Shown here one piece after another: positions 1 through 39,699 of a DNA stretch of 39,699 nucleotides. The first letter of the stretch is position 1; each line of letters begins with the position of its first letter. Source of the DNA: a virus; the UHGV virus genome UHGV-0270985; one strand, 5' to 3'. The notes under the pieces are model-generated. The model did no database searches. It saw nothing but the letters and a program-made list of their open reading frames with translations, and was not told the origin of the DNA. Both the position numbers and the translations under genes were made by a program.

Positions 1-1009
1 AGTTCGTTCTTTGTCCCTCAATAAGCAGGCCATCACACTCAAATCGCGGCTCATTAATTTCCGCCGTTTTCAGTTCGCCAGATTTGTTGATATATGTTGC
101 CGTTGATGCGCGACTGAAATTAATCTGTTTATCACTGGCAACCTGAACCACATTATCGCCAATCTTCACTTTTTTATAACCCGGAGAATAGCCCGTAATC
201 ATATCCAGCGAATCATTAAAGGGTATCCACACATCCGGCAGCGGCTGTAAAACATATCTGTACGGCTCTGCTGTCTGGTTTGCGTATTCTCTGGCAGCAT
301 CTTCACTTGCTTTTGCTGCCGTCTGGCTTGCTGCCGATGCTTTCGCCGAGTTCGCCGCCGCTGTTTCGCTCACCTTTGCGTTGGCTTCACTGTCTTTGGC
401 ATTCGTCTCACTGGTTTTCGCTGCCGTCTGGCTGGATTTTGCGTTTTTTTCGCTGGCCTTTGTGGCTGTCTCGCTATTTTTCGCGTTGGTTTCTGATTTT
501 TTGGCTGCTGTCGCGGAGTTTGCCGATGCAGTCTGCGAGGCCGCTGCCGCCTGTGCGCTGTTAGCTGCATTCGTTTCTGAGGTTTTCGCCGCATTCTTCG
601 ATGAGGCTGCTGCCGTTTCGGATTTCTTTGCCGCCGCTGCACTCTGTGATGACGCTCCGGCATGACGTGCCACTTCATTCACCATCAGCTCAAAACGGCG
701 CAGTGCCTCCGGACGGGCATCATCCTCCGTCATGGCACCGAGAAAATCATTCAGCGTACCTGGTCTGGAACCTTCATAGACGGTAATGGTCCCGGCATGT
801 GAAGGTGGAAAACCTTCAACCAGCAGGGTGACGCTGTACTGGCCATACTCAACATCCATGCTGTAACGCCCGGCTTCATCCGGATTTTCAGAGGCCACCG
901 TGTTCACCACCACCGTGCTGCTGGTCCGTCTGGCCTTCAGCACAATGGTGCAGTTCTGTACTGGTTTTCCTGTGCCATCTTTAAGCACGCCAGAAATTTT
1001 TACTGTCAT
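1..1009 (-). CDS. stf: side tail fibre protein Stf, N-terminal ~336 codons; the gene runs off the window start
   Basis: Minus-strand ATG at 1007-1009, open frame to position 1. Translation starts MTVKISGVLKDGTGKPVQNCTIVLKARR..., matching the lambda Stf N-terminus from memory, followed by an Ala/Lys/Ser/Glu/Thr-rich heptad-repeat shaft. Not in the ORF track because no stop lies in the window. Confidence 0.8.
   Translation of the reverse strand, partial: MTVKISGVLKDGTGKPVQNCTIVLKARRTSSTVVVNTVASENPDEAGRYSMDVEYGQYSVTLLVEGFPPSHAGTITVYEGSRPGTLNDFLGAMTEDDARPEALRRFELMVNEVARHAGASSQSAAAAKKSETAAASSKNAAKTSETNAANSAQAAAASQTASANSATAAKKSETNAKNSETATKASEKNAKSSQTAAKTSETNAKDSEANAKVSETAAANSAKASAASQTAAKASEDAAREYANQTAEPYRYVLQPLPDVWIPFNDSLDMITGYSPGYKKVKIGDNVVQVASDKQINFSRASTATYINKSGELKTAEINEPRFECDGLLIEGQRTN
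330..690 (-). repeat. imperfect 21-bp tandem repeats encoding heptad repeats (consensus roughly A-K-x-S-E-T-N) of the Stf shaft
   Basis: Periodic GCx/AAA/TCx/GAA/ACx codon pattern visible directly; it generates the spurious ORFs in three other frames over 280-786. Confidence 0.6.
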
Positions 1010-11488: not shown

Positions 11489-11499
11489 CCCCGGAAGCG

Positions 11500-11886
11500 C
11501 TACTTTTTTTTAACCTCGCCGGCATCACTGATTAGTTCCAGAGACTGCCGAAGAAGCCGCGCATGCACCGGGCCATACACGGCAATCACCTGTTCACGAT
11601 CATCCTCTGAAAATACAGGTTGCAGTCCGGTATCACACAGAACATCGATGAACAGTTCAACATCCGCTTCCAGATTTCGGCGGGCGCGCTCCGCAACGGA
11701 TAACGGTGTCTCATCATCTTTTGCTTTAACGATCTCCTGCCAGCGCAACCAGGCTTCTGCAGAAGGTTCCCGTAATACAACCGTTGCCCCTTCCCATTCA
11801 GGCACATCAACAGTTTTATGGCGAAACCCCGACATCGTTGCCAGTGCCAGATTACGGATATTTTTAGTCATCACATCTATCCTCAT
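11500..11886 (-). CDS. G: tail assembly chaperone G
   Basis: 128 aa acidic protein between V and H; its ATG overlaps the V stop (TAATG). Confidence 0.7.
   Translation of the reverse strand: MRIDVMTKNIRNLALATMSGFRHKTVDVPEWEGATVVLREPSAEAWLRWQEIVKAKDDETPLSVAERARRNLEADVELFIDVLCDTGLQPVFSEDDREQVIAVYGPVHARLLRQSLELISDAGEVKKK
11503..11511 (-). promoter_or_regulatory. programmed -1 ribosomal frameshift site (A AAA AAG slippery heptamer) at the G/T junction
   Basis: Minus strand reads GAG GTT AAA AAA AAG TAG (G ends VKKK*). A -1 slip continues GTA GCG CTT CCG GGG ATG CGT..., i.e. directly into the T frame. Confidence 0.6.
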
Positions 11887-12590: not shown

Positions 12591-12602
12591 ACTCGTCTCC
12601 TG

Positions 12603-12628
12603 AAAATAAAAAACCCGCCAGCGGCGGG
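12603..12628 (-). terminator. intrinsic terminator/attenuator upstream of V
   Basis: Stem cccgcc...ggcggg; plus-strand A-run aaaataaaaaa gives a minus-strand U-tract. Confidence 0.4.
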
Positions 12629-12649
12629 TGGGTAAAATCATTAACGACC

Positions 12650-12994
12650 TCAGGCTATTACCTGAAATTCAAGCGTGGCTCTGCTCAGACGGGAGTCAGG
12701 ATCATACCCCTGCGTTTTAGAAATAACGGAGGGTGCCAGTTTCCTTACTGCATCAAGCGCCTGCTCACGAATATCATCTGCGTCATCAGGTACTGTCGCC
12801 CAGACATCGATCTGCACGGTAATTCTGGATTCAGCCTGCCCATCAAGCACATCAGATGCCGTGTCAGACACCACAGAAAACACCAGCCACGGCGGAGATA
12901 CCGCAGGCTTTCCCTCCGTCAGCGGGACCACATAAGGATAAACCTGTCCTCCGGCCAGCTGAGACAACAGGGAATACAGTGTGCCCTCCCTCAT
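12650..12994 (-). CDS. tail completion / tail terminator-like protein (U-position)
   Basis: 114 aa; called from position between the HK97 gp10-like gene and V; 4-nt overlap with the upstream gene. Confidence 0.5.
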   Translation of the reverse strand: MREGTLYSLLSQLAGGQVYPYVVPLTEGKPAVSPPWLVFSVVSDTASDVLDGQAESRITVQIDVWATVPDDADDIREQALDAVRKLAPSVISKTQGYDPDSRLSRATLEFQVIA

Positions 12995-13440
12995 TTACTT
13001 AAGACCTCATCAATAGCCTGATTCATTCGCTGTATGGCAACCTGCGCCGCCAGCTCCTCTGTCGTATCGAAAGCCGGGCGAATGAATGGATGCGCGGGCA
13101 TGTTTATCGTTCCCAGCTCCACAAAGCGCCAGTAAAATGCATTTCGGGGATCGCTGGCTTTCATGCTGTTATCACTGTTTCCGGTTCGCAGGTTCCGTCC
13201 GCGAATGTGGACACCCGAGATAATTTCCCCCCGACGCTTTGAACGCTGAGTGAGAACAACCACATTTTTCTTCAGTTTCCCGGTTCGCTCCGGCGCACGT
13301 TCAACAACTGCATCCCGCATAACTTCAGCACCGGCACGGGTGGCATCGCGCAGAACCTTATTGTTTTCTGCCCTGCTGAGCGTCTCCAGATCCCGTGCAA
13401 TATCCGCCAGGCCGGAAAAATCAAGACTGAAATCCATCAC
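12991..13440 (-). CDS. HK97 gp10-family head-tail joining protein
   Basis: 149 aa with the ELGT...PFIRPA motif I associate with HK97 gp10; position in the neck module. Confidence 0.6.
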   Translation of the reverse strand: MMDFSLDFSGLADIARDLETLSRAENNKVLRDATRAGAEVMRDAVVERAPERTGKLKKNVVVLTQRSKRRGEIISGVHIRGRNLRTGNSDNSMKASDPRNAFYWRFVELGTINMPAHPFIRPAFDTTEELAAQVAIQRMNQAIDEVLSK

Positions 13441-13775
13441 ACATTCCCCTTCAGGCTGCAGAGTATTTCAAGCCGGGTAGCGCGTGCATCCGGTATTGGT
13501 GGACCTTCTATACCCAGAATGGCCCCTTTAAATGCACCGGTCAGCACTTTCAGACGTGAAGTCGCTGTCACATCGCGCCGGAATCTCATCCAGACTCTGA
13601 CCGTAGCCTGAGCGGTTTCTGCTCCGCCTGAGATTATCTCCCTCCCGCTGATACCCTTAACTTCTGCCCATACGGTAGCTCCCTCCGTCACCGTCTCCAC
13701 CGGATGCCCTGACGGAGAGCGGGCGGTGGTGACATTCAGAATAATTACGCGATCACGTAATCTGCCCGCCTGCAT
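13437..13775 (-). CDS. head-tail adaptor / head closure protein
   Basis: 112 aa starting MQAGRLRDRVIIL; size and position typical of SPP1 gp16-type head closure proteins. Confidence 0.65.
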   Translation of the reverse strand: MQAGRLRDRVIILNVTTARSPSGHPVETVTEGATVWAEVKGISGREIISGGAETAQATVRVWMRFRRDVTATSRLKVLTGAFKGAILGIEGPPIPDARATRLEILCSLKGNV

Positions 13776-13783
13776 GTCTCCTC

Positions 13784-14101
13784 CTACAAAGGAATAAAAC
13801 GATAAGGCTCCAGCAGAGAAGAAAAACCAAACGGGACTGGTGCCTTGCTGACATCTGAGGAATTTTCCCGGTTTTCGTACCAGTGCCCGACCAGCAACAT
13901 GAGCGCCAGCAAAACATCATCAGCTATAAGCACCCCTTCAGGATCACCTTCCGGCACCGTCTCCTCATAAAGCTTACGGTTGATAAAATTTTCTGCCTTG
14001 CGGCAGGCAGCCCGGAAATACAGCATCAGTAACTCATCATCAGTTGCATCATCTGTATCAATACGGCACTGCGCCCTGAGTTTTTCCACTATTGCTGCCA
14101 T
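13784..14101 (-). CDS. gp6-like head-tail connector protein
   Basis: Start taken at internal ATG (MAAIVEKLRAQ) at 14099-14101 with a CAGGAG ribosome-binding site; the track start would run through the terminator and the capsid gene end. Confidence 0.6.
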   Translation of the reverse strand: MAAIVEKLRAQCRIDTDDATDDELLMLYFRAACRKAENFINRKLYEETVPEGDPEGVLIADDVLLALMLLVGHWYENRENSSDVSKAPVPFGFSSLLEPYRFIPL

Positions 14102-14134
14102 CAGAAACTCCTGCCCGCAACACTGTGCGGGCAT

Positions 14135-14155
14135 AAAAAAACCGCGTCGGCGCGG
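14135..14155 (-). terminator. intrinsic terminator/attenuator directly downstream of the major capsid gene
   Basis: Stem ccgcg-tcgg-cgcgg with plus-strand A7 run (minus-strand U7). Confidence 0.5.
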
Positions 14156-14177
14156 TCTGTAACTGAACAACGAGTGG

Positions 14178-15395
14178 TTATTTGCCAGTGAGCGCCTTGA
14201 TGGCTGCCACATCTTCCAGCACACAGTCAAAACGATGGAAAGCCAGAAATGCCACCTGATCAAACTCAGCATAACGCTCAACCAGACGTTTCAGTTCCAT
14301 ATAAGTAACGCGGCGAATGATAAAGCGGTTGAAATCCCCCAGGAAAATGAATTTTTTTCCGGTACCAATCCCGTCAATAGCCTGATCAATAACATAAGGG
14401 ATCCCCAGCACAGTAGCCGGCGTACCGCCTGCAATATCCGGCAGCCATAACGGGCGTTTCTGCCCATCCTCCATCTCTTCAATAGTCTGCAATGTGGCAT
14501 CATTGAATGCCCAGCGGTATTTCGGCCCACCACGATATGCCGGATCAATGGCATGTTTCAGGGCATTCATTTCTTTCCAGGTGAAAGCGGCAGAGGCTGC
14601 AGTCTGGATGGTTCCCGTCACCGACGCTGCCAGCCCTTTTGGCTGTAACGGTGATCCCGTTCCGGTCCCCTGAACCAGATATTTTGCCTCTCCACGACCA
14701 ATACGCTGGGCAATACGGTTTGCCAGATAAGATTCAATATCCACCCCACTGTCCTGGAGCAGCTCATTGGACACACGAATTATTTTTGATGACAGCTTTT
14801 TAGCCCCCAGAATAGCGGTCCCGAACGTCACATCCTGTTCCGTTGCGGCTGTATTTTCCGCCAGCAGTTCGCCCTCTTCAGTCGTGCCATCAGACGTTGA
14901 CCAGGTGATATCCTGCCCGGTTGATGTGGTCAGAAGTTGCGCCACACTGGCAATCCCGCCATAAGCCTTCATGGTGTCAATGATTTTGTTACGCATCTGC
15001 GTGGGCACCGTATATCCGCCCTGAGAATCCGTTGTTACACTCTGAGCCCGCAGTTCACGCATCAGATTACGCTCTTCAGCATTCAGTTCTGCAAATCCGG
15101 CACGCAGAAAACGGTTAAATGCCGCAGCGCGCTTCTCTTCCACCGCCTTTTTCCCGTTCTCCGCCTCATTATTCTGGCGCTCTTCCGGCCCGGACTCATC
15201 CACATATGCCTGATCCTGACGGCGCAACTCTTCTTCACGGGCGATTTGCTCATCCAGCGCATCCAGCTCAGCTTTCGCCCTGTTCCACTCTGCCCGTTGC
15301 TCATCAGTCCATGCGTTATCACCAATTTTTTCATGCAGTGCACGCATATCCTTTGCAATGGTGTTTCGTTTTTGCTTCATCTCATGAAGTTTCAT
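14178..15395 (-). CDS. HK97-family major capsid protein
   Basis: 405 aa; N-terminal coiled-coil delta-domain-like segment (residues ~1-100) followed by an HK97-fold-sized body; follows the prohead protease. Confidence 0.85.
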   Translation of the reverse strand: MKLHEMKQKRNTIAKDMRALHEKIGDNAWTDEQRAEWNRAKAELDALDEQIAREEELRRQDQAYVDESGPEERQNNEAENGKKAVEEKRAAAFNRFLRAGFAELNAEERNLMRELRAQSVTTDSQGGYTVPTQMRNKIIDTMKAYGGIASVAQLLTTSTGQDITWSTSDGTTEEGELLAENTAATEQDVTFGTAILGAKKLSSKIIRVSNELLQDSGVDIESYLANRIAQRIGRGEAKYLVQGTGTGSPLQPKGLAASVTGTIQTAASAAFTWKEMNALKHAIDPAYRGGPKYRWAFNDATLQTIEEMEDGQKRPLWLPDIAGGTPATVLGIPYVIDQAIDGIGTGKKFIFLGDFNRFIIRRVTYMELKRLVERYAEFDQVAFLAFHRFDCVLEDVAAIKALTGK

Positions 15396-15409
15396 CGTCA
15401 GTAGTATCC

Positions 15410-16009
15410 TTATGCATTAAGAAGGGTCAAAAGACGCTCACGCGCCATTCGTTCGTTAACAGCTTTCTTCAGCGCACCACTCGCCCGCGCTTCCTGCCAG
15501 GCTTTCATTGAGCGGACACCAGAGTCTGCGTCCTGATAGGCCGGATATGTCACCGGGCTGACGTCATACAGACGAGAAATGCGCGTGATTTCCCGGATAA
15601 CAATCCCTTCGTCGTCTTCATACCAGCTCTCTCCGTCACGGGCGACACGAAACGCGAACGAGGACTGATTAATGTCACCACGCAACATTGGAGACAGCAC
15701 CAGGTCACAAATAGTCGGAGTATCCGGTGCAACAATGTCATAACGTAAACCGCGTTCATCCACCGACAATGACAACGTGCCGGCAGAACTTCGTCCGAGA
15801 ATGAAATTAGGATCATGATTAAACAAGCCACGTACATCATCATTCAGTACATCATCAAAAGCCCCCGGCTTGATGATTTCACGAAATCCCCACAGAGGTT
15901 CTGAACGACTGTTAAATACCGAGCCATACCCCAGAATGTGGGTCGGGGCATTATCATATTGTTCCGCCCGCACCTCCCCGCTGTAACAGCGCGTTTCACG
16001 GTCATTCAT
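15410..16009 (-). CDS. HK97-family prohead protease
   Basis: 199 aa with GYGSVF and LFNHD motifs; between portal and capsid. Confidence 0.85.
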   Translation of the reverse strand: MNDRETRCYSGEVRAEQYDNAPTHILGYGSVFNSRSEPLWGFREIIKPGAFDDVLNDDVRGLFNHDPNFILGRSSAGTLSLSVDERGLRYDIVAPDTPTICDLVLSPMLRGDINQSSFAFRVARDGESWYEDDEGIVIREITRISRLYDVSPVTYPAYQDADSGVRSMKAWQEARASGALKKAVNERMARERLLTLLNA

Positions 16010-17228
16010 CGTTCTTTTCCTCTTTGCCTTTCGTATCTTTAAAGTTATTCAACGGATTTGCTGCATTTACGCTGACCAGCATTTCATCCAGACCGTCAAC
16101 CGGGTTCATATCCTCAAATGCCCTGGCTTCATTCCGACTCATCCAGCCATCTGTAATGGCAAAGTGATAGAACTGCGCACGCTCCTGTGGGGTCCCACGG
16201 AGCAACCCCGTGAGGTTGAAACGAACGTAATACCCGGCAGCCCGTTCTGTACGGGTAAACAGGCGACGGTTAAGCTCCTGCTCCCAGTTCGCAACCCAGG
16301 GCATCATCGTGTAGCGAACAAACTGAATCGCCTGCTGCGTAATATTCGAAAATGTGGCTTTTTCCAGGTCATTAATCATGTGCGCCGGGACATTAAAAAT
16401 CCCGGCAATCATCGACCGGTTCAGCTTGGTCATATCAATGATCTGAGCATCCACCGGAGAAACTGTCAGAGCGCGGTAATCCAGTTGCGCAGGCAGCAAC
16501 ATGGTTTTATTTTCCTGGCTGCGAAGCGCTGTCACCGCCCGCTGCCACATATTTTTAAGCCTGCCCCAGCTTTGTTCGTTCAGTTCATTTTTCACAGAAA
16601 TAATACCGGCAGGACGGGCATTACCGTTAAAAAAGGCGCTGGTATACTGCTGGCCACTCATTCCCATACCAATGGTTTCAGCATGCTGCATGATCGGGCT
16701 CAGTCCCATTTTCTGATTGTTTCCCAGCGCCCTGATATGGATCATGTCGTCCGGACTTACCGCAAATGCACCCTCTTCGTTATACACCCCGTAAGTATGA
16801 CGCCCACCGGTGTTAAGTAACGTGGTTTCCCATGGCATACAGCATTCAAGGCTGGTAACCTCTCCACGACGATTACGTTTTACCCACGTATAACCATTGC
16901 CCCACCCCAGCACATGACGCTGCTTCAGTTCCCGCCACTTATAGCTGGTCTGCCAGGCATTAGGTTCATCATGAACGAGCCAGAACAACGGATGATCGCG
17001 TGCCGGCTGAACATGCTCATTCGTTTTTCGCATCACATGCAGGGGCATCTGAGCCACACTGGATGAAATAACATAAATACAGGCATAGACAGCAGCCAGC
17101 TTCATGGATGTTTCCGGACTGACATACACATCCCGGGCAAAAATATTATCCGTCTCAGCGGCCTCTCCGGTTACCGGAACCGAGGGATTTTCCAGAGGCT
17201 CACTGCGAAACAGAGCATCAAGAAGCAT
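16002..17228 (-). CDS. HK97-family portal protein
   Basis: 408 aa; position after terminase large subunit; overlaps the protease start. Confidence 0.85.
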   Translation of the reverse strand: MLLDALFRSEPLENPSVPVTGEAAETDNIFARDVYVSPETSMKLAAVYACIYVISSSVAQMPLHVMRKTNEHVQPARDHPLFWLVHDEPNAWQTSYKWRELKQRHVLGWGNGYTWVKRNRRGEVTSLECCMPWETTLLNTGGRHTYGVYNEEGAFAVSPDDMIHIRALGNNQKMGLSPIMQHAETIGMGMSGQQYTSAFFNGNARPAGIISVKNELNEQSWGRLKNMWQRAVTALRSQENKTMLLPAQLDYRALTVSPVDAQIIDMTKLNRSMIAGIFNVPAHMINDLEKATFSNITQQAIQFVRYTMMPWVANWEQELNRRLFTRTERAAGYYVRFNLTGLLRGTPQERAQFYHFAITDGWMSRNEARAFEDMNPVDGLDEMLVSVNAANPLNNFKDTKGKEEKNDE

Positions 17229-17359
17229 GTTTTCTCCTCATGGACACCACCAGTGCATAAAGCAGCAACAAACAGCCCGACAGCATCAGAGACGCTGGCA
17301 GACCTGCATACAGATAAACGCCAGCAGTGAGCAAACCGAAACCGATCAGCCCGGTCATA
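17219..17359 (-). CDS. possible 46-aa hydrophobic membrane peptide between terminase and portal
   Basis: ATG at 17357-17359; MTGLIGFGLLTAGVYLYAGLPASLMLSGCLLLLYALVVSMRRKHAS; stop overlaps the portal start. Below the ORF-track size cut-off. Confidence 0.3.
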
Positions 17360-17375
17360 TCAGTAATAAGCTGTT

Positions 17376-19133
17376 TCACAGAATTAACAGGTCCTCATCA
17401 GGATCAAGCGTGGACAGAAAGTCATTCACGCCCCCTCCATTTACCAGAAAGCGGCTCATGGCTGTAAAAAGCGCAACAGGGCCGTCGATTTTGGCTTCCG
17501 GCGTGGATTTATTCGGGAAGATGTTGTCGTTTTTGTCCGGTTTTACAGTAACGTTAGACATCATCCAGTTCATGACCGGATGATTGCTGTGATGGAAACG
17601 CCCGGCATAAACCAGTGATTCCGTTTCCTTCATGGCCTCTGACAGATTGCGGACCGTCTGCGGAACCTCCACCAGCGGTATCCCTTCTTCAGCCAGTGCC
17701 AGGCTGAACTGCATTGCGCTCCACGGGTCAAATCCCAGTTCCCTGAGGTTTTCACCGCCAATCCATTCCAGTAAGTCACTTTTTATCTGAGCATGATCGA
17801 TAACATCACCATCCGTCAGGATGAGCTTATCCATCTCCGCCCACTTCCGGTAAAGTTCTGCCTGCTGCCGCGAGCATCGTTCCAGCCGTCCTTCCGGAAG
17901 CCAGAATTTAAAATCAGCATGAACATGTCCGTTATCGGTTCGCCAGAGTTTTGCCGCCGCACAGATATCAATCTTATGAGCAAGGTCGACGCCGACCCAC
18001 ATGGGATATGTTTTCAGCTCATGTTGTGGAGCAATGTATTCGCACTTCTCCCACTTAATCATATCCATCCAGGCAGATTCGGCAGTGACCCACACATTCA
18101 TGTGTTTGGTAAAAAAATTCACCCGCGCAGAGACCTGCTCCTTCGCTTTTTTCGCCAGGCGACGCAGATCATCCCAGCGTTTACAGATGCCCAGGCCAGG
18201 ATTCGCTTTCTGCCAGACCGTTTCATCAAACGGATCATCTCCCTCATCAAGCGTGTAAATGATCGCAAAGTAAGAGTCGTCTTTTACAGCGCCCTCCACG
18301 TCGCTGTTATAGCCTCGCAATACCTTGATGGCGTAATCACGCTGCTCGTAACAAATCCCTTCCTTGTTAAAGCCAGCCGTGGTGATACCAAATAACAGGG
18401 ACTGCAGACGGGCACCGGTTGCCGTTTCCAGAACGTCCCACACGTCGCGGGTTTTATGTGCATGCAGCTCATCAATAATGGCGCAGTGGATGTTCAGACC
18501 GTCCAGGTTGTTTGCATCCGAGGAAAGCGGTTCAAATTTTGATGCGCTCTGCTCCTGGTAAATCGCCAGCTTGTTGAAATCAAACAACCGCCCGAGTGTC
18601 GACCGGGCTTTTCTGACCATATTTTTGGCGTCTTCAAACACGATTCTGGCCTGGTCACGCGTGGTTGCGGCTGAATACACCTCAGCTCCGCCTTCACTAT
18701 CTGCCCCCGTCATATACAGGCCGATACCCGATGACAGTGTTGATTTTGCGTTTTTACGGGCGACTTCGTTGTACGCCGTCCGGAACCGGCGCACCATCAC
18801 CGGACGTCCGCTGCCATCGCTGCGCATGACAACTTCCCCGGTTTCTTCATTGACCAGCGGAATGACAAAACCAAAAATATTAATGAGGATAAATACATGC
18901 CAGTCCATCAACTCAATGGGCTGGCCTGCCAGTGCCCCTTTTACATGAGGCACAAATTTGTAGAAATTCAGGATGTGCTGCGCACGGGGTTCACTGAAAT
19001 AAATCCCCCGCTTTTCGCCGTACTTCAGATCATCAAGAAAACGCTGGCAGGCCAGGCGGACAAATTCGCCAGCAACAATTTCTCCTGCAACAACACGTTC
19101 GGCGTAGCGGATCCCGTCAGCCACTTTTGCCAT
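17376..19133 (-). CDS. terL: terminase large subunit
   Basis: 585 aa; ATPase N-terminal and nuclease C-terminal regions; start overlaps the small-subunit stop (ATGA). Confidence 0.9.
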   Translation of the reverse strand: MAKVADGIRYAERVVAGEIVAGEFVRLACQRFLDDLKYGEKRGIYFSEPRAQHILNFYKFVPHVKGALAGQPIELMDWHVFILINIFGFVIPLVNEETGEVVMRSDGSGRPVMVRRFRTAYNEVARKNAKSTLSSGIGLYMTGADSEGGAEVYSAATTRDQARIVFEDAKNMVRKARSTLGRLFDFNKLAIYQEQSASKFEPLSSDANNLDGLNIHCAIIDELHAHKTRDVWDVLETATGARLQSLLFGITTAGFNKEGICYEQRDYAIKVLRGYNSDVEGAVKDDSYFAIIYTLDEGDDPFDETVWQKANPGLGICKRWDDLRRLAKKAKEQVSARVNFFTKHMNVWVTAESAWMDMIKWEKCEYIAPQHELKTYPMWVGVDLAHKIDICAAAKLWRTDNGHVHADFKFWLPEGRLERCSRQQAELYRKWAEMDKLILTDGDVIDHAQIKSDLLEWIGGENLRELGFDPWSAMQFSLALAEEGIPLVEVPQTVRNLSEAMKETESLVYAGRFHHSNHPVMNWMMSNVTVKPDKNDNIFPNKSTPEAKIDGPVALFTAMSRFLVNGGGVNDFLSTLDPDEDLLIL

Positions 19134-19615
19134 CAGTCTCTCGCTTTTAAAAGCTCTGCCAGCGGATCAACATTATCCGGTCCGGCGGTATTTACTTTTG
19201 CCCGGCTTGCCGGTGACATACCAAATTCTGCAAGCATCGCCCGGATCCGCTTCCAGGCATCCGCTTTCATCGCAGCAGCCGGGTGTGCCTTAATCAGCAC
19301 ATCACCGTTCTGCGTTTCCGAGCGGTAGGTGTACCCCTCAACATCGAGTGTTTCGCAGTGATGCCGGTATTCGGTATAGGCTTCCACCAGTAGCTCAAGC
19401 GCACGCGCATCAAGCTGAGAAATGATCCCTTCCGCATTCAGCTCTTCCGCCATTCGCCTGAACCAGTACTTCCCCTGCGCCCCTAAATGTTGCGGAATTT
19501 TAGGGAGACCTTTTTCATCCTTTTTAGCGGTTTTTTTGAGGTCTTTAACTGGCCGCTTTGAGGGGTTGCCTCGTATCAAATGCAGGCGTGGCGGGATTTT
19601 CGGGGGTCCAGACAT
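19133..19615 (-). CDS. terS: terminase small subunit (P27 family)
   Basis: 160 aa starting MSGPPKIPPRLHLIRGNPSKRPVKDLKK, typical P27-family N-terminus. Confidence 0.8.
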   Translation of the reverse strand: MSGPPKIPPRLHLIRGNPSKRPVKDLKKTAKKDEKGLPKIPQHLGAQGKYWFRRMAEELNAEGIISQLDARALELLVEAYTEYRHHCETLDVEGYTYRSETQNGDVLIKAHPAAAMKADAWKRIRAMLAEFGMSPASRAKVNTAGPDNVDPLAELLKARD

Positions 19616-19669
19616 AATCGGTTTTACCTATCAATCATTTAATCACATTCCAAAAAAAAGTTTTCGAAC

Positions 19670-19745
19670 CTGCGGCGATGCGAGGAAAGGTCAGGCGGCG
19701 GTACTGAGCAGCCAGGGTTGCAGAGATTTGACCCGCCCCTCCCCT
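19670..19745. other. candidate cos (cohesive end) region
   Basis: Non-coding interval between HNH endonuclease and terS, where HK97-like phages carry cos; contains AGGTCAGGCGGCGGTAC, reminiscent of the lambda cosN GGGCGGCGACCT core. Confidence 0.3.
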
Positions 19746-19762
19746 ACAGATGGGAACTGTTA

Positions 19763-20113
19763 TCAATTGATGCGTTCGCGCGCTGTTTTTGCTTTATGAC
19801 AGGGCCAGCACAGACTCTGCAGGTTACTGTCTGCATCTGTGCCACCATGAGCTTTCGGAATGATGTGGTCCACAGTTCTGGCTTCAACGGCTCTCCCATT
19901 GCGCAGGCAGTTCTGACACAGATGATTATCACGCTTCAGTATGCGCGCACGTATGGCATCCCATTTCGAGCCATAGCCACGCTGGTGGCGGCTCAGTCCG
20001 CGTTGATGCTGTACCCATCCTTCGCCACGATGTTTATCGCAGTAACCAGAACTGTCTGTGGTTGTACCTGCACATCCACGCTTACGGCAGGCGCGTGGGA
20101 TTAGTGCTGGCAT
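19763..20113 (-). CDS. HNH endonuclease, packaging-associated
   Basis: 116 aa with Cys-rich HNH motifs (CxxC...DHIIPKAHGGTDADSNLQSLCWPCH); immediately upstream of terS as in HK97-type cos phages. Confidence 0.8.
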   Translation of the reverse strand: MPALIPRACRKRGCAGTTTDSSGYCDKHRGEGWVQHQRGLSRHQRGYGSKWDAIRARILKRDNHLCQNCLRNGRAVEARTVDHIIPKAHGGTDADSNLQSLCWPCHKAKTARERIN

Positions 20114-23291: not shown

Positions 23292-23368
23292 TGGCGCGTT
23301 GTACTGGATTCGAACCAGTGACCGATTGCTTAGAAGGCAATTGCTCTGTCCGGTTGAGCTAACAACGC
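23292..23368 (-). tRNA. argO: tRNA-Arg (anticodon UCU), argO-like
   Basis: Manual fold of the reverse complement: acceptor GCGTTGT/ACAACGC, D-arm GCTC...GAGC, anticodon stem ATTGC/GCAAT with loop CTTCTAA, T-arm ACTGG-TTCGAAT-CCAGT, 3' GCCA. Confidence 0.85.
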
Positions 23369-23381
23369 AGGGTACAGATAA

Positions 23382-23458
23382 TGGACCGCCATCGAGGACT
23401 CGAACCCCGCGCAACCAGCTTCGAAGGCTGGTGCTCTATCCTGATGAGCTAATGGCGG
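23382..23458 (-). tRNA. argN: tRNA-Arg (anticodon UCG), argN-like
   Basis: Manual fold: acceptor CCGCCAT/ATGGCGG, anticodon stem CCAGC/GCTGG with loop CTTCGAA, T-loop TTCGAGT, 3' TCCA. Confidence 0.75.
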
Positions 23459-23465
23459 TATGTGA

Positions 23466-23541
23466 TGGTGGCCCTTGCTGGATTTGAACCAGCGACCTGG
23501 CGATTATGAGTCGCTCGCTCTCACCTCTGAGCTAAAGGGCC
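23466..23541 (-). tRNA. ileZ: tRNA with CAU anticodon, most likely lysidine-dependent tRNA-Ile2 (ileZ/ileX-like); tRNA-Met cannot be excluded from the anticodon alone
   Basis: Manual fold: acceptor GGCCCTT/AAGGGCC, anticodon loop CTCATAA, T-loop TTCAAAT; matches the E. coli ileX layout from memory. Confidence 0.75.
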
Positions 23542-29821: not shown

Positions 29822-30784
29822 TTACCCCCTGAATCCCGGCGGTATTTCAGTGTCCGGTTCAGAAATGTGATTCACGCAACGCTGCGCAGGCGAACGCCCC
29901 AGGCGGATAACCAGTTCATCCCATTTTTCCCGGAGTTTTGCCGGACTCATGATGTTTTTTACCCAGAACGAATCCCGCTGGAGACGCCCAAACATTTCAC
30001 AAATTTGTCTGTGAGTTCTGCCATCCAGCATCCGCATTGTGCGAACGTCATTGGCCCATGCTGTCCAGTTGGGTTCTTTCGGTCTAGTGATCTCGCCATC
30101 ATCGCTGGCCGCCTGCTCGTAAAGACTCACGATTCGTCCCCAGATCCACTGTGCGCACACCAAATCTTCCTGACTTCCCCACTGGCGTTTTTTCGCACTG
30201 AACACAACCGCGTCAGGGTGTCGGGTTAAAAAATCCTGTTCAGCCGTCTGCGGGTCCGGTTGCGAAGCGTCCGGACAAGAAGATCTTTTATCTGACGGAT
30301 CAGGTTTTAATACTGACGGATCGGGGTCAATCATCGCCCCCCTAATCGGCAGTTTTTTATCAACGGTTGATCCATCAAAATTTGACGGGTCAACCGTTGA
30401 GGGGTCAATATTTGACGGGTCAACTGTTAACGGGTCATTTTTTGCCGGGCTAATTTTTCTTTTCGGTTTATATGACTCACGCGCCGCCGCCGCAGCTGCT
30501 TCGAGTTTTTCCACATTAAGCCGATAGATATTGCTTACATTACGCCCACCGACCTTACGCTCTTCCTTCGTCAGCCAGCCCTCTTTCGCCAGTTCTGCAA
30601 TAGCCGATTTCACTGTGGATTCACTTCTTGCACCGATCTGACGCCGGATAGTTTCAATGGCAGGCCATGACACGCCCTCGTCATTGCTGTAGTCTGCAAG
30701 ACGGGCCATAACCGCCACCCTGGATAAGATCATGCCGGTGAAGGCGCACCCTTCCCAGACAAGACCATGAAGCTTGCTGCTCAT
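29822..30784 (-). CDS. replication initiator, O-like, with the origin inside the gene
   Basis: Start taken at ATG 30782-30784 (MSSKLHGL) with a GGGGG ribosome-binding site. N-terminal winged-helix-like region; central peptide repeats (DPLTVDPSNIDPSTVDPSNFDGSTVD) are encoded by the DNA iterons. Confidence 0.6.
   Translation of the reverse strand: MSSKLHGLVWEGCAFTGMILSRVAVMARLADYSNDEGVSWPAIETIRRQIGARSESTVKSAIAELAKEGWLTKEERKVGGRNVSNIYRLNVEKLEAAAAAARESYKPKRKISPAKNDPLTVDPSNIDPSTVDPSNFDGSTVDKKLPIRGAMIDPDPSVLKPDPSDKRSSCPDASQPDPQTAEQDFLTRHPDAVVFSAKKRQWGSQEDLVCAQWIWGRIVSLYEQAASDDGEITRPKEPNWTAWANDVRTMRMLDGRTHRQICEMFGRLQRDSFWVKNIMSPAKLREKWDELVIRLGRSPAQRCVNHISEPDTEIPPGFRG
30320..30440. repeat. origin-of-replication iterons plus adjacent AT-rich tract
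   Basis: At least five copies of (A/G)CGGGTCAA(C/T)-like repeats in direct and inverted orientation (gggtcaatc, tcaacggttga, acgggtcaacc, ggggtcaat, acgggtcaact, acgggtca), followed by cattttttgccgggctaatttttcttttcggtttatat. Confidence 0.6.
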
Positions 30785-30806
30785 AAAACCCCCGAACACC
30801 GTGCTT

Positions 30807-36380: not shown

Positions 36381-36584
36381 ATGAGTAGCTTATTTTTAAC
36401 CGAAGATGAATTGCTAATATTAACGGGCTGCAAATATGCAAGCCACCAGCGAAAATGGTTAACGGAAAACGGGCTTCCGTTCTATACCAATCGTAGTGGC
36501 AAACCGATTGTCAGCCGGGATCTATTTACCTGCAATAAAACTTTACCACCACGCGAGGTAGAGCCGAATTTTGGTGCAATCTGA
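36381..36584 (+). CDS. xis: excisionase-like protein
   Basis: 67-aa ORF immediately upstream of int; its stop overlaps the int start codon. Confidence 0.6.
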   Translation: MSSLFLTEDELLILTGCKYASHQRKWLTENGLPFYTNRSGKPIVSRDLFTCNKTLPPREVEPNFGAI

Positions 36585-37609
36585 TGGGAAGACGAAGGAA
36601 AAATCCTGAACACGAAAAACTACCTCCAAATGTATATCCAAATAAATATAGTTATGTATGGAAACCAACATCCAGAGAATCTGTCACACTAACCGCCATC
36701 AAGGATGGTTTAGCTGCTTTATGGAAAAGGTATGAGGAAACTGTAAATAATCGCGATCGCGCAATGACATTCGGTCGCTTGTGGGAAAAATTCCTCGCCA
36801 GCGCCTATTACAGTGACCTCAGTCCAAGAACACAAAAAGATTATCTGCAACATCAAAAAAAGTTGCTTGCCGTATTCGGTAAGGTGCCGGCAGATTCCAT
36901 AAAACCAGAACACATCCGTCGATACATGGACCAGAGAGGGGGGCAGAGTAAAACGCAAGCCAACCATGAAAAAAGCAGTATGTCCCGCGTTTACAGTTGG
37001 GGATATGAGCGAGGGTACGTGAAGGCTAACCCATGTGCAGGTGTAAGTAAATTCAAGGCCAAAAACCGCGAACGATATGTAACCGACAAAGAATACCAGG
37101 CAGTATTAAGCGTTGCACCTCTTCCTGTTTTTATCGCAATGGAAATTGCCTATCTGTGTGCAGCGAGGGTTTCCGATGTGTTATCGCTGAAATGGGAGCA
37201 GATTGGAAACGACGGGATCTTTATCCAGCAAGGGAAAACAGGGAAAAAACAGATAAAAGCATGGAGTCCACGATTACAGGCGGCGATCGAAAAAGCAAAA
37301 CAGTTACCAACATCCGCCTATGTAATCAGCAATCAATACGGCAACCGATATATGTACAAAGGCTTTAACGAAATGTGGGTAGAAGCAAGAAATCGCGCAG
37401 GCAAAATTTCAGGTATTTTAACCGACTTCACCTTTCATGATCTGAAGGCGAAAGGAATTTCAGACTATGAAGGAAGCAGCCGGGATAAGCAACTTTTCTC
37501 TGGTCACAAAACCGAGGGGCAAGTGCTAATCTATGACAGGAAGGTTAAAGTTTCACCGACACTTGATGTCCCGTTACCTGAAAATATTCCAAGAAAATAT
37601 TCCAAGTAA
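36584..37609 (+). CDS. int: tyrosine integrase (lambda Int family)
   Basis: 341 aa; N-terminal arm-binding-like region, C-terminal catalytic region with HDLKAKG and GHKTEGQVLIYDR (His-x-x-Arg and Tyr nucleophile context). Confidence 0.9.
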   Translation: MGRRRKNPEHEKLPPNVYPNKYSYVWKPTSRESVTLTAIKDGLAALWKRYEETVNNRDRAMTFGRLWEKFLASAYYSDLSPRTQKDYLQHQKKLLAVFGKVPADSIKPEHIRRYMDQRGGQSKTQANHEKSSMSRVYSWGYERGYVKANPCAGVSKFKAKNRERYVTDKEYQAVLSVAPLPVFIAMEIAYLCAARVSDVLSLKWEQIGNDGIFIQQGKTGKKQIKAWSPRLQAAIEKAKQLPTSAYVISNQYGNRYMYKGFNEMWVEARNRAGKISGILTDFTFHDLKAKGISDYEGSSRDKQLFSGHKTEGQVLIYDRKVKVSPTLDVPLPENIPRKYSK

Positions 37610-37661
37610 TTCCAAGTGTGATTTTTGTCACTGACTTAATGATGTGTAAGTGATTGAATTT

Positions 37662-37723
37662 TGGCGGAGAGAGGGGGATTTGAACCCCCGGTGGAGTTGC
37701 CCCCACTCCGGTTTTCGAGACCG
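37662..37723 (-). other. 3' portion (anticodon stem-loop to CCA end) of a tRNA-Ser(CGA) gene, the attachment-site core
   Basis: Reverse complement reads CGGTCTCGAAAACCGGAGTGGGGGCAACTCCACCGGGGGTTCAAATCCCCCTCTCTCCGCCA: anticodon loop CTCGAAA, long variable arm, T-arm, acceptor 3' strand plus CCA. No complementary GGAGAGA 5' acceptor strand follows at higher coordinates, so the tRNA is not intact here. Confidence 0.6.
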
Positions 37724-38072
37724 ATGATACAGAGTCGAAAAATCAAAGAGTTAAAAACTTTTCTTGGAATAAATGTCTTAAAATCGTACACGAAAAATCA
37801 ATAAATTACATAACATTAAAGAAGAATATTCCAAGCCTTCTTGAGGCCACCACCTGTTTTCAGGTGTCATTCAGACGTGATTTACCCCAGATTGGGTAAG
37901 CACGCTTTTTTTCTCAGCTTATTCCGTTTTGCCTGTGTGTTGAATAATTCCACTGCAGTTATATAAAATCGGTAACGGCTGGAAATCATTCAATACTAGC
38001 ACTATCGAAAGTTAACCAGCCAACCGCAGTATCCTGTCATGACAAGTTACTGCGGCTTTTTACTTTTTATAT

Positions 38073-38360
38073 TTAACGGATCAACATCCAGATCAGCAGA
38101 CACGCCACCACCGGCACAGCAAAATCCATCAGGCTTGCCACATCCCACGCGCGTGGATCAAAACCGCCCCACCACGGCATGTTAATCCGCTTGCCATGCC
38201 CGAACATTTCAATCCAGCGATATTCTGCCTGGGTGTGTTCACGCGCAATGAAGAACGTACAACCGGCTATCGCCCCGTAAGCCCAGTTTCCGGTAAAAAG
38301 ACCAGCCAGCCCCTGTACCGCCACAGCACAAATTGCATGAAGTATCGGCGTGATATCCAT
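38073..38360 (-). CDS. hypothetical 95-aa membrane protein, outside the att core
   Basis: Hydrophobic segments (ILHAICAVAVQGLAGLFTG, VPVVACLLIWMLI); last gene of a minus-strand cluster converging on int. Confidence 0.45.
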   Translation of the reverse strand: MDITPILHAICAVAVQGLAGLFTGNWAYGAIAGCTFFIAREHTQAEYRWIEMFGHGKRINMPWWGGFDPRAWDVASLMDFAVPVVACLLIWMLIR

Positions 38361-38369
38361 CTGCTCCCC

Positions 38370-38648
38370 TTAAAACCACTCCCTGAGCGGGCGCTCTGGT
38401 GTAACCACCCACTCACGGAACACGGATTCATCAAAGCCATCGTCAAGAAGACGAATATTAACAAAGTACCCTTCGTCTCGCGTGTATTCAGGCTCCCCGT
38501 CAGCAGAAACACCTGACTCACTGAACGTAAAACCAATCTCATCAACCAGAACGGCATTCTGCAGCTCTTCGTCCTCTTCCCAGTTAAGTTTCCTGAGAAA
38601 TGCCCTGAAATCTGCTTTATCACTGAAACGCAACGTGAAATCTCTCAC
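38370..38648 (-). CDS. hypothetical 92-aa acidic protein
   Basis: Overlaps the upstream gene by 4 nt, suggesting translational coupling. Confidence 0.45.
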   Translation of the reverse strand: MRDFTLRFSDKADFRAFLRKLNWEEDEELQNAVLVDEIGFTFSESGVSADGEPEYTRDEGYFVNIRLLDDGFDESVFREWVVTPERPLREWF

Positions 38649-39699
38649 TCCACAACCTCCCCAAGCTGCGCATCTGTTAGCTCTTTATGCCAGAGACGAA
38701 AATTCCTCACATGCCCAAATAAATGGCGTAATCCTGCTGTAGTTTGTCCACCAATGCGAATGGTTGCTGTACTCCGGATATATTCCCATTTGGTTTTAGT
38801 TTCGCTGCTTAACTTACCGTTACTGACTACACATGTGGACCGTTCGGACTTTACCCGCATACCAATAAGCATTTTTTCCAGCCCGGCATTTTCATTTATT
38901 CGTCGGTTTGAACCACCTATATCACAATACGGAAAACCGTCGTACCCACCTGATGAACCAAACCCCATTACGATCCCCGCATCTGCCTGATGCCGGTATG
39001 TGTCAAAAACACGCGGTGCTGCATTTGGCGTTTTATACCAGTTCTTATGTACCTCACAAAGAACCGTAAAAGGAAGATTATAAAGATTATTCTTAATCGG
39101 AACTGTAACCATATCGCTTGCCCGCGTTACCGGTGCCGTCCCCGTAACAATAAAAGATGATGCGCCTGTACCAGCCTCAATCTGTGGAGTGGTTACATCG
39201 AGATAATCCCCTGATGCAACCATCTGCCCTGTATCCGGAGAATACTGGACAAAACCACCAACCGTATTTTCTGTTGTATCTGCTTTTAATGTAGCCTCAA
39301 AAAATATCCAGCCAGTTGCATCATCCTTAACAGACCTTGCTGTAACACGGCTTGTCTGACCTGTCTTGCTAATTATGCGGGTGGTAAGGTTCAGGTTTGC
39401 TGCTCCTATTGATGTCCTTACCTCCCCATCATAATGTTCAAATAAAATACGAACGGCGATATTATCAACTTCACTTTTTACCCGACAGGATATAGTTACA
39501 TGCTTTTCGTCCCCTGAAGTATCAACCCCTCCGGTACTCGAATACAGTCCGATAATGGTATGCGCTTTACTTGTACCAACAATCGAATCCTGTACGACAA
39601 ACCGGCCATAATTAAACCCGAAACTATCTGTGCCTGTTTCTGTAACGTCCAGTGAAGTTGACTTATTCCACTTCGAAGGGTCTGTACTGTTCTGGAAGA
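38645..39699 (-). CDS. hypothetical protein of at least 350 aa, 5' end beyond the window; beta-rich, possibly a tail fibre / receptor-binding protein
   Basis: The minus-strand frame stays open from the stop at 38645 to the window end, well beyond the track's Met at about 39223; hand translation of 39224-39699 gave no stop. Gly/Ser/Thr-rich; family not recognised. Confidence 0.4.
   Translation of the reverse strand, partial: FQNSTDPSKWNKSTSLDVTETGTDSFGFNYGRFVVQDSIVGTSKAHTIIGLYSSTGGVDTSGDEKHVTISCRVKSEVDNIAVRILFEHYDGEVRTSIGAANLNLTTRIISKTGQTSRVTARSVKDDATGWIFFEATLKADTTENTVGGFVQYSPDTGQMVASGDYLDVTTPQIEAGTGASSFIVTGTAPVTRASDMVTVPIKNNLYNLPFTVLCEVHKNWYKTPNAAPRVFDTYRHQADAGIVMGFGSSGGYDGFPYCDIGGSNRRINENAGLEKMLIGMRVKSERSTCVVSNGKLSSETKTKWEYIRSTATIRIGGQTTAGLRHLFGHVRNFRLWHKELTDAQLGEVVE

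What the first reader, a model, noticed from the sequence alone, without database searches (positions are those of the whole stretch)
37662..39699. The att core is a tRNA-Ser 3' fragment whose far side is not tRNA: a gene trio of unknown function beyond the prophage boundary
Only the anticodon-stem-to-CCA part of tRNA-Ser(CGA) is present, with its 3' end facing int. On its 5' side (higher coordinates) there is no acceptor/D-arm sequence, but a 350-bp AT-rich spacer and then three tightly packed minus-strand genes (at least 350-aa beta-rich protein, 92-aa acidic protein, 95-aa membrane protein). That arrangement does not fit a single prophage next to an intact host tRNA. It suggests a second element sharing the same att core (tandem integration, satellite, or the tail-fibre end of a neighbouring prophage), or a rearranged boundary.
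Basis: partly seen in the sequence, partly recalled or inferred. Interest (0 to 1): 0.6.

Follow-up and report, generated by a model that had tools for sequence, protein, structure and literature searches.

The report
Phage attP in circularly permuted genome
The "half tRNA with phage genes on the wrong side" is the ordinary attachment site (attP) of a lambda-like E. coli phage whose 39.7-kb genome is written here as a closed circle, so the three genes beyond it are the phage's own tail-fibre end, not a second element.

Summary
Window 37662-37723 is the 3' 62 nt of E. coli tRNA-Ser(CGA) serU, with no 5' half. It is followed by a 349-bp AT-rich stretch and three minus-strand genes.

The interpretation needs correcting. 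The last base of the window is directly continuous with its first base in several E. coli chromosomes. Joining the ends restores a 687-aa side tail fibre gene that is 100% identical to an annotated prophage protein. The window holds no host DNA. It is exactly one unit of a lambdoid, HK97-like phage, cut open inside the fibre gene.

The junction int | core | trio is therefore attP. Comparison with empty K-12 serU (attB) and a single lysogen (attL, attR) gives a textbook Campbell set. Two phage/host polymorphisms place strand exchange at the anticodon stem-loop. Five WWATTCCAAG repeats, found nowhere else in the window, flank the core in a lambda-like 3+2 layout.

The trio is the end of the late operon: a side tail fibre and two small phage proteins of unknown function. 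The same trio occurs in isolated phages.

Real tandem arrays exist: strain M15 has three cores. This window is most simply a circular or assembler-closed phage genome. Known biology, low interest.

The parts
36381..36584 (+). 67-aa DUF4224 protein, the likely excisionase or recombination directionality factor. Its stop overlaps the int start.
   Evidence: PF13986, E 2.8e-16. phrog_1266 'excisionase', E 2.4e-21. No detectable similarity to lambda Xis.
36584..37609 (+). 341-aa tyrosine integrase of the lambda Int type, with an N-terminal arm-binding-type domain.
   Evidence: PF00589. Aligns over its full length with lambda Int at 23% identity, E 3e-18, including MGRRR..LPPN(V/L)Y. The exact protein lies next to serU/mtfA in 10 of 10 long contigs.
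37584..37616 (+). Three direct WWATTCCAAG repeats at 37584, 37597 and 37607, overlapping the int 3' end. Candidate arm-type Int sites of the int-proximal arm.
   Evidence: All 5 matches in the 39.7-kb window lie at 37584-37835, with 0.32 expected by chance. Lambda has an annotated Int-binding site overlapping the int 3' end.
37662..37723 (-). attP core: 62 nt equal to serU tRNA-Ser(CGA) nt 29-90, from the anticodon stem to CCA.
   Evidence: It carries the phage alleles G37693 and C37704.
37705..37723 (.). Segment that must contain the strand-exchange (overlap) region. It includes the anticodon loop at 37713-37719.
   Evidence: In lysogen 3385 the zinT-side junction keeps both host alleles and the int-side junction keeps both phage alleles. 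The crossover therefore lies to the right of 37704.
37741..37808 (+). Two matches to the IHF consensus WATCAANNNNTTR, at 37741-37753 and 37796-37808, in the int-distal arm.
   Evidence: There are 3 matches in the window against 1.75 expected, and 2 of them lie here. Suggestive only.
37763..37835 (.). Two further WWATTCCAAG repeats: 37763-37772 on the minus strand and 37826-37835 on the plus strand. Candidate arm-type sites of the int-distal arm.
37881..37912 (+). Terminator-like hairpin plus U-run, read in the int direction on the far side of the core. Candidate tI/sib-like element.
   Evidence: dG -14.2, z -2.8. The int-attP module shared with the IMG/VR contig behind L014 ends just after it, at about 37919. 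The function is inferred.
38024..38055 (.). Strong hairpin between the convergent late operon and the int transcription unit. A U-run follows it on the plus strand.
   Evidence: z -4.2 on the plus strand and -5.7 on the minus strand.
38073..38360 (-). 95-aa three-helix membrane protein (phrog_1443) of unknown function. It is the last gene before attP.
   Evidence: E 5.5e-56. 565 clusters with an invariant REHTQAEYRWI..MPWWGGF motif. AF2 pLDDT 92. No fold or defence hits.
38370..38648 (-). 92-aa acidic protein (phrog_1361) of unknown function. Its GTG start overlaps the fibre gene's TGA stop (GTGA).
38645..39699 (-). C-terminal 351 codons of the 687-aa side tail fibre gene, covering the receptor-binding part.
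   Evidence: NCBIfam GTA_spike_fiber domain, E 6e-14. phrog_1419.
1..1009 (-). N-terminal 336 codons of the same tail fibre gene. The start codon is at 1009 and the gene continues from the window end.
   Evidence: The joined ORF is 687 aa and identical to WP_016245366.1 of UPEC129. PF08400 covers residues 1-131.

Best explanation
The segment is the attP region of a temperate lambdoid E. coli phage that integrates into the serU tRNA-Ser(CGA) gene. The phage has an HK97-type head and terminase, a lambda-type tail and a lambda-Int-type integrase.

The window is one complete 39,699-bp genome unit written as a circle and opened inside the side tail fibre gene. As a result int (with the Xis-like gene upstream), the 62-bp core and the distal end of the late operon lie side by side. 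They lie this way only in an excised or replicating circle, in an assembler-closed contig, or between two tandem copies.

Shown here:
- the window wraps around onto itself;
- the attB/attP/attL/attR relationships hold;
- the crossover lies in the anticodon stem-loop end of the core.

Inferred mechanism:
- Int binds core sites formed by the anticodon stem, and binds the five WWATTCCAAG arm sites (three over the int 3' end, two in the other arm), helped by IHF bending.
- Integration splits this junction. The phage copy of the tRNA 3' part completes serU next to int. The displaced host 3' fragment ends up next to the 95-aa gene at the other prophage end.
- Hairpins beyond the core (37881-37912 and 38024-38055) would end or destabilise int transcripts only when the genome is in the attP configuration, as lambda tI/sib does.

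The trio is a side tail fibre (Stf-type N-terminus, GTA-spike-like distal domain), a translationally coupled 92-aa protein that may be a fibre-specific helper, and a 95-aa inner-membrane protein that behaves as an independent cassette. The functions of the last two are not established.
For: Wrap-around:
- In UPEC129, window 37654-39699 maps to 2838313-2840359 and window 1-20000 maps to 2840360-2860359. CFSAN067215 shows the same adjacency.
- In FDAARGOS_1304 the whole window maps at 100% as one prophage, interrupted only by an IS21.
- The joined ends give a 687-aa ORF identical to WP_016245366.1.

Campbell set:
- K-12 attB is host | core | serU 5' part.
- Strain 3385 has attL as host | core with host alleles | trio side, and attR as int side | core with phage alleles | serU 5' part.
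- The window is int side | core with phage alleles | trio side, identical to the middle junction of the M15 tandem.

Site architecture:
- All five arm-type repeats lie within 37584-37835, with 0.32 expected by chance.
- Lambda's record shows the same geometry.
- Int is homologous to lambda Int over its full length.
- The upstream gene is excisionase-like.

Independent occurrences:
- The exact attP junction occurs in three IMG/VR viral contigs.
- It occurs in only 1 of 5,426 complete E. coli genomes (M15).
- The ordinary configuration, int | serU | mtfA, is seen in 10 of 10 long contigs.

The trio is phage-borne:
- It hits PHROG families.
- The fibre-279 bp-288/294 bp gene order lies after J/lom in phages ev243, mEp460_4F5 and PhiR49_2.
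Against: - The sequence alone cannot tell a physical circle, or an assembler-closed contig, from a window cut out of a homo-tandem array.
- Binding of Int or IHF to the proposed sites was not tested. The IHF matches are statistically weak.
- The sib-like role of the hairpins was not tested either.
- The Int HxxR box reads HDLK, with Lys where lambda has Arg311.
- PGAP flags this int allele as frameshifted at its extreme 3' end in three genomes. Int activity of this particular copy is therefore assumed from the family's evident mobility, not shown.
Confidence: 0.9

Rival explanations
1. The window was cut from a chromosome that carries two head-to-tail prophages at serU (a tandem polylysogen). 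On this reading the trio belongs to the neighbouring copy.
For: Such an array exists. In E. coli M15 the order is zinT | core (host alleles) | prophage A | core (phage alleles) | prophage B | intact serU | mtfA. The middle junction is identical to the window over the 200 nt compared and 99.3% identical over 3.4 kb. A tandem junction is attP by construction, so the local sequence cannot exclude this.
Against: - The window is exactly one unit, with its end continuous with its start to the base. For an arbitrary chromosomal window that would be about a 1 in 40,000 coincidence.
- The window contains no host DNA.
- It would also require the two copies to be identical where they overlap. In M15 the two prophages differ in immunity and replication genes and in IS content.
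- Only 1 of 5,426 complete genomes has this junction.
Confidence: 0.12
2. A phage satellite or other small integrative element shares the serU core and lies next to the prophage.
For: serU does host other elements. In FDAARGOS_1304 and UPEC129 the tcpC-carrying serU island lies immediately beyond the displaced core. Its flank next to the core resembles the phage's int-side flank.
Against: - The genes beyond the core are a full-length side tail fibre followed by lom, J and the complete tail, head and terminase set of the same genome.
- There is no second integrase and no satellite hallmark genes.
- PADLOC gives no hits.
Confidence: 0.01
3. The boundary was rearranged by recombination between different prophages, producing a hybrid junction.
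For: Such events do affect this phage. In UPEC129 the tail half lies next to the serU island at 2.84 Mb and is joined to an ompW-type xis/int. The serU-type int | serU | mtfA lies at 2.14 Mb. That pattern implies an inversion between two lambdoid prophages.
Against: - The window junction is base-for-base what reciprocal recombination of attL and attR of a single lysogen predicts.
- Both arms map to one and the same prophage at 100% identity in FDAARGOS_1304.
Confidence: 0.02

Closest known systems
Bacteriophage lambda attP with int, xis and tI/sib
   Same: - The gene order is tail fibres / b-region end, then attP, then int, then xis.
- Int is homologous over its full length, including the arm-binding N-terminus.
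- Repeated arm-type sites lie on both sides of the core, with a cluster overlapping the int 3' end.
- IHF-consensus matches lie between the arm sites and the core.
- A terminator-like hairpin lies across the core from int.
   Different: - The core is 62 bp of a tRNA gene, not lambda's 15-bp core between gal and bio.
- The arm motif is WWATTCCAAG, not lambda's.
- The directionality factor is a DUF4224 protein unrelated in sequence to lambda Xis.
- Int has Lys at the Arg311 position.
tRNA-gene integrating elements that cross over in the anticodon loop and carry the tRNA 3' part from the anticodon stem to CCA (sublocation classes of Williams, Nucleic Acids Res 2002; cited from memory)
   Same: - The core starts in the anticodon stem and runs to CCA.
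- The crossover is confined to 37705-37723, which holds the anticodon loop.
- The phage copy restores a functional-looking tRNA, with a compensatory pair change in the variable arm.
- int lies next to the restored tRNA in lysogens.
   Different: Nothing of note. This is a typical member.
serU-integrated lambdoid prophages of E. coli (strains 3385, FDAARGOS_1304 and M15; partial phage records vB_EcoM-606R7 and vB_EcoS-689R5)
   Same: They share the same int, core and arms at 96-100% identity. The FDAARGOS_1304 prophage is 100% identical to the window apart from an IS21 insertion.
   Different: Those are integrated, with attL and attR flanked by zinT (or the serU island) and by serU/mtfA. The window shows the closed attP form.
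Lambdoid coliphages ev243 (Nesevirus), mEp460_4F5, PhiR49_2, 2G7b and Tritos
   Same: The same three-gene module (about 2.06-kb side tail fibre, 279-bp gene, 288/294-bp gene) follows J/lom. It lies ahead of the int region.
   Different: - They have other integrases and att sites.
- Some carry cargo genes between the trio and int: dinI, or ompT, a hydrolase and a methyltransferase.

Membership tests
Lambda-type attP of a tRNA-integrating temperate phage | A tyrosine integrase gene lies adjacent to the site. | tested here: met
   PF00589 hit and a full-length alignment to lambda Int. The int stop is 52 bp from the core.
Lambda-type attP of a tRNA-integrating temperate phage | The core is identical to the 3' part of a host tRNA gene. 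| tested here: met
   62 nt equal serU nt 29-90: 60/62 against K-12 and 62/62 against the serU of lysogens.
Lambda-type attP of a tRNA-integrating temperate phage | The reciprocal junctions attL and attR exist in lysogens, and an empty attB exists elsewhere. | tested here: met
   Alignment of K-12, 3385 left end, 3385 right end, the window and M15.
Lambda-type attP of a tRNA-integrating temperate phage | Arm-type repeated Int sites lie on both arms. | tested here: met
   Five WWATTCCAAG repeats, all within 37584-37835, with 0.32 expected by chance. This is a sequence pattern only; binding cannot be tested here.
Lambda-type attP of a tRNA-integrating temperate phage | IHF sites lie in the arms. 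| tested here: inconclusive
   Two consensus matches, at 37741 and 37796. The window-wide count is not significant: 3 against 1.75 expected.
Lambda-type attP of a tRNA-integrating temperate phage | An excisionase / directionality factor gene lies next to int. | tested here: met
   DUF4224 and phrog_1266 'excisionase'.
Lambda-type attP of a tRNA-integrating temperate phage | Integrative and excisive recombination activity is demonstrated. | not testable with these tools
   Inferred from single, tandem and attP-form occurrences.
Tandem prophage (polylysogen) junction | Three cores are present, with host DNA outside the outer two. | tested here: not met
   The window has one core and no host DNA. 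The feature is met in strain M15.
Phage satellite (P4-like, PICI and similar) | A small element with its own integrase, lacking virion structural genes. | tested here: not met
   The genes beyond the core are a tail fibre continuing into lom, J and the full tail, head and terminase set.
Lambda Stf/Tfa side tail fibre module | The fibre has the Stf-type N-terminal domain (PF08400). | tested here: met
   E 4e-68 over residues 1-131.
Lambda Stf/Tfa side tail fibre module | A Tfa-type assembly chaperone lies downstream. | tested here: not met
   The 92-aa and 95-aa proteins have no Pfam or NCBIfam family. They hit only PHROGs of unknown function.
Anti-phage defence system | A match to known defence protein models. 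| tested here: not met
   PADLOC gives no hit at E <= 0.1 for any of the three proteins.

The most novel reading that the evidence does not exclude
The only part that current knowledge does not explain is the 95-aa membrane protein, the last gene before attP. It belongs to a large, unannotated family of at least 565 clusters at 90% identity. The family has an almost invariant polar motif (D2, H8, Q16, R40-E41, Q44-A-E-Y-R-W-I50, M61-P62, W64-G-G-F67).

The family occurs after tail-tip or fibre genes in enterobacterial and Comamonas prophages. It also occurs as a lone chromosomal gene in Aeromonas, at 56% identity.

It could be a new kind of small inner-membrane lysogenic-conversion or superinfection-exclusion factor, or a small membrane enzyme borrowed from the host.
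Probability: 0.25. Interest if true: 0.35.

Novelty: already known. Interest (0 to 1): 0.1.

Why it matters
The main value is for interpretation. A tRNA fragment with phage genes on both sides is the signature of attP in a circular or tandem phage genome. It is not the signature of a broken boundary or a hidden second element.

Recognising this gives several practical results:
- It defines the phage precisely as one 39,699-bp unit.
- It fixes the integration site (serU) and the core (62 bp).
- It locates the probable crossover in the anticodon stem-loop.
- It identifies candidate arm sites.

It also shows that serU in B2-type E. coli can carry a stack of elements: the tcpC island, one or two lambdoid prophages, and then the yersiniabactin high-pathogenicity island (HPI) at the neighbouring tRNA-Asn gene (asnT in K-12). 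None of this is new biology.

Tried and rejected
- Second copy of the core in the window: none found.
- tRNA callers on the fragment: ARAGORN finds nothing. Rfam gives only partial, sub-threshold hits to tmRNA and a plastid 3'-UTR family that share the T-arm and acceptor sequence.
- Defence hypothesis: no PADLOC hits.
- Function of the 95-aa protein:
  - Pfam and NCBIfam give nothing meaningful.
  - A confident AF2 model (pLDDT 92) gives no significant BFVD match.
  - The afdb50 library was not available.
- Function of the 92-aa protein:
  - The family is narrow.
  - The single-sequence AF2 model reaches only pLDDT 73.
- Solved structures for the fibre C-terminus: only a marginal hit to the RcGTA head spike fibre, consistent with the NCBIfam domain hit.
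- Source of the window: no record in the phage collection and no IMG/VR contig of this exact length was found.
- Literature searches on serU prophages and tandem prophages returned nothing specific to this phage. Only the serU island papers were relevant.
- Satellite and rearranged-boundary readings were rejected on gene content and on the exact attL x attR prediction.
Full report
**1. What is in the sequence**

- int is a 341-codon plus-strand ORF at 36584-37609. A 67-codon ORF (36381-36584) precedes it, and its stop overlaps the int start.
- Fifty-two bases after the int stop, at 37662-37723, the minus strand reads as the 3' 62 nt of tRNA-Ser(CGA).
- Against K-12 serU (90 nt) this segment is nt 29-90, from the second base of the anticodon stem to CCA, with 60 of 62 identities.
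- The two differences (G37693, C37704) convert an A-U pair of the variable-arm stem into G-C, so they are compensatory.
- Homology stops dead at 37723/37724, with no D-arm or acceptor 5' strand. ARAGORN calls no tRNA there, and Rfam gives only partial sub-threshold hits to families sharing the T-arm and acceptor end.
- A 349-bp stretch at 36% G+C follows (the window is 50%). After it come minus-strand ORFs of 95 aa (38073-38360) and 92 aa (38370-38648), and an open frame from 38645 that leaves the window.

**2. The window is a closed circle written linearly**

- In E. coli UPEC129, window 37654-39699 maps to chromosome positions 2838313-2840359 (H18). Window 1-20000 maps to 2840360-2860359 at 100% identity (H31).
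- The last base of the window is therefore followed immediately by its first base. CFSAN067215 shows the same adjacency (H17, H33).
- Joining window 38645-39699 to 1-1009 gives an uninterrupted 687-codon ORF. Its product is identical to the annotated 'prophage tail fiber N-terminal domain-containing protein' WP_016245366.1.
- In strain FDAARGOS_1304 every part of the window maps at 100% identity to one prophage. The order is core, trio, tail, head, terminase, lysis, Q, replication, immunity, exonuclease, DUF4224 gene, int, serU. The only interruption is an IS21.
- The window thus contains no host DNA and is exactly one genome unit of 39,699 bp.
- It is opened inside a gene, not at the cos end expected near the P27-type small terminase and HNH genes. 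That is how assemblers output circular contigs.

**3. The junction is attP**

I aligned 200 nt around the core from five contexts.
- K-12, the empty site: host-left | core | serU 5' part. This is attB.
- Strain 3385, zinT side: host-left | core | the window's right arm, identical from 37724 onward. This is one prophage end.
- Strain 3385, other end: the window's left arm (int side) | core | serU 5' part. This forms an intact, annotated tRNA-Ser next to mtfA.
- The window: left arm | core | right arm. That is precisely the product of recombining those two ends, which is attP.
- M15 middle junction: identical to the window.

The polymorphisms add resolution. The zinT-side junction keeps both host alleles, and the int-side junction keeps both phage alleles. 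Strand exchange therefore lies to the right of 37704, within 37705-37723. That segment is the anticodon stem-loop, with the loop at 37713-37719.

From what is known of tRNA-targeting tyrosine integrases (from memory, Williams 2002), the anticodon stem supplies the inverted core-type sites and the 7-nt loop supplies the overlap. This step is inferred, not shown.

**4. Architecture of the site**

- Arm repeats: the decamer WWATTCCAAG occurs five times in the 39.7-kb window, with 0.32 expected by chance. All five lie at 37584-37835.
  - Three are direct copies over the last codons of int (37584, 37597, 37607).
  - Two lie in the other arm (37763 inverted, 37826 direct).
- Lambda's own record annotates two Int-binding sites in the arm distal to int, one at the core and one overlapping the int 3' end. 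The layout is the same.
- Int: it aligns with lambda Int over its whole length at 23% identity, E 3e-18. This includes the arm-binding N-terminus (MGRRR..LPPNVY against MGRRR..LPPNLY), the RV(S/G)D arginine and the GHK motif.
- Upstream gene: it is DUF4224 and matches PHROG 'excisionase'.
- IHF: two matches to the consensus lie between the core and the distal arm repeats. The statistics are weak.
- Hairpins: on the int strand, across the core, there is a hairpin plus U7 at 37881-37912. A stronger hairpin at 38024-38055 abuts the stop of the convergent 95-aa gene.
- Because integration separates int from both hairpins, they could act like lambda tI/sib. This is a hypothesis.
- Module boundary: three IMG/VR contigs carry the exact 86-nt attP junction. 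Their similarity to the window extends from int across the core to about 37919, about 38031 and about 38371 respectively before diverging. The int-attP module therefore includes the first hairpin.
- Part of the 'AT-rich spacer' is thus an attP arm, not filler.

**5. The trio**

- Gene 1 is a side tail fibre.
  - It has PF08400 over residues 1-131 (E 4e-68).
  - It has an Ala/Ser/Thr-rich repeat region, which explains the direct repeats at 288-475.
  - It hits phrog_1419, and its distal part hits the NCBIfam 'GTA spike fiber' domain.
- Gene 2 (92 aa, acidic) starts with a GTG that overlaps the fibre stop, which suggests translational coupling.
  - It belongs to phrog_1361, a narrow Escherichia-only family of 24 clusters.
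  - Its model is of low confidence with a generic alpha/beta fold.
- Gene 3 (95 aa) is phrog_1443.
  - Its model is a confident three-helix membrane protein.
  - The family has at least 565 clusters and a nearly invariant polar motif.
  - There are no fold or defence matches.
- The same order (fibre of about 2.06 kb, then a 279-bp gene, then a 288/294-bp gene) follows J/lom in the phages ev243, mEp460_4F5 and PhiR49_2. It lies ahead of their int regions. The trio is therefore the normal end of the late operon.
- Gene 3 is separable from the fibre. A homologue follows gpJ in a Comamonas prophage, and another is a lone chromosomal gene in Aeromonas.
- My best guesses are a fibre-specific helper for gene 2 and an envelope or exclusion function for gene 3. 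Both are low-confidence inferences.

**6. Tandem arrays and other neighbours**

- Among 5,426 complete E. coli genomes, only M15 contains the int-core-trio junction.
- There it is the middle of a true tandem. The order is zinT | core (host alleles) | prophage A | core (phage alleles) | prophage B | intact serU | mtfA.
- The two M15 prophages differ in immunity and replication modules and in IS content, so the assembly is credible.
For this window, however, it would require an exact one-unit cut and identical copies.
- The ordinary configuration, int | serU | mtfA, is seen in 10 of 10 long contigs that encode the exact Int protein.

**7. Comparison with known systems and verdict**

This is a typical lambda-type attP/int/xis module aimed at a tRNA gene, in a known kind of mosaic lambdoid prophage at a known island hotspot. 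The serU island literature is PMC5521745 and PMC8147327. Nothing about the junction is new.

The finding is best closed as 'attP in a circularly permuted phage genome'. The only open item is the function of the two small proteins, chiefly the widespread 95-aa membrane protein.

Noticed in passing
window 37425-37460 (Int residues about 283-290); compared with lambda Int in L017: The conserved HxxR box of tyrosine recombinases reads H-D-L-K in this Int, with Lys where lambda Int has Arg311. PGAP also flags this int allele as 'frameshifted' at its extreme 3' end in M15, 3385 and FDAARGOS_1304. That is the region where the 13-bp-spaced arm repeats overlap the coding sequence. The family is nevertheless clearly mobile.
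   Followed up: partly
L003 (UPEC129, NZ_CP071522.1 2834000-2883000) and L028 (same genome, 2142297-2149322): In UPEC129 the tail, head and terminase half of this phage (100% identical to window 1-20000) lies next to the serU island. It is joined to a different early region ending in an Arm-type int next to ompW. The serU-type int | mtfA half lies about 0.7 Mb away. This looks like a chromosomal inversion by recombination between two lambdoid prophages.
   Followed up: partly
L010 and L018 (FDAARGOS_1304, NZ_CP069990.1 861343-884000): The displaced host serU 3' fragment is flanked directly by the tcpC-carrying serU island (tcpC, TIR and macro-domain genes, mobQ, pilV, repL, H-NS-like genes, and its own integrase near zinT). 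The locus therefore reads zinT | island | core | phage | serU | mtfA | tRNA-Asn | HPI. No full second core was found at the zinT end of the island.
   Followed up: partly
window 38073-38360; L019 6001-6309; L020 6001-6303: The 95-aa membrane protein family has no Pfam or NCBIfam model but is very conserved. An Aeromonas chromosomal gene, sitting among housekeeping genes next to two lipid A acyltransferase genes, is 56% identical. The family also occurs after gpJ in a Comamonas prophage.
   Followed up: partly
window 23292-23541: Three phage-borne tRNA genes lie downstream of Q: Arg-UCU, Arg-UCG and a CAU-anticodon tRNA. ARAGORN calls the third Met, while RefSeq annotates the identical gene as Ile. 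This cluster is typical of lambdoid and Stx-type prophages.
   Followed up: no
window 30360-30449: Three tandem 30-bp direct repeats (TCAACNGTTGA...TTTGACGGG) lie inside the 325-codon minus-strand ORF at 29822-30799. They look like origin iterons within a replication-initiator gene, as in lambda O.
   Followed up: no
window 288-475: Imperfect 41-nt direct repeats were flagged as a repeat family. They lie in the Ala/Ser/Thr/Lys-rich repeat region of the side tail fibre, protein residues about 180-240.
   Followed up: yes
L008 8872-11998 (M15, NZ_CP185789.1): In M15 the left-hand prophage's tail fibre gene is split by an IS903B. IS5 copies sit in msrP and near the prophage tRNA cluster, and both int copies are flagged as frameshifted. 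The tandem array in that strain may therefore be decaying.
   Followed up: no
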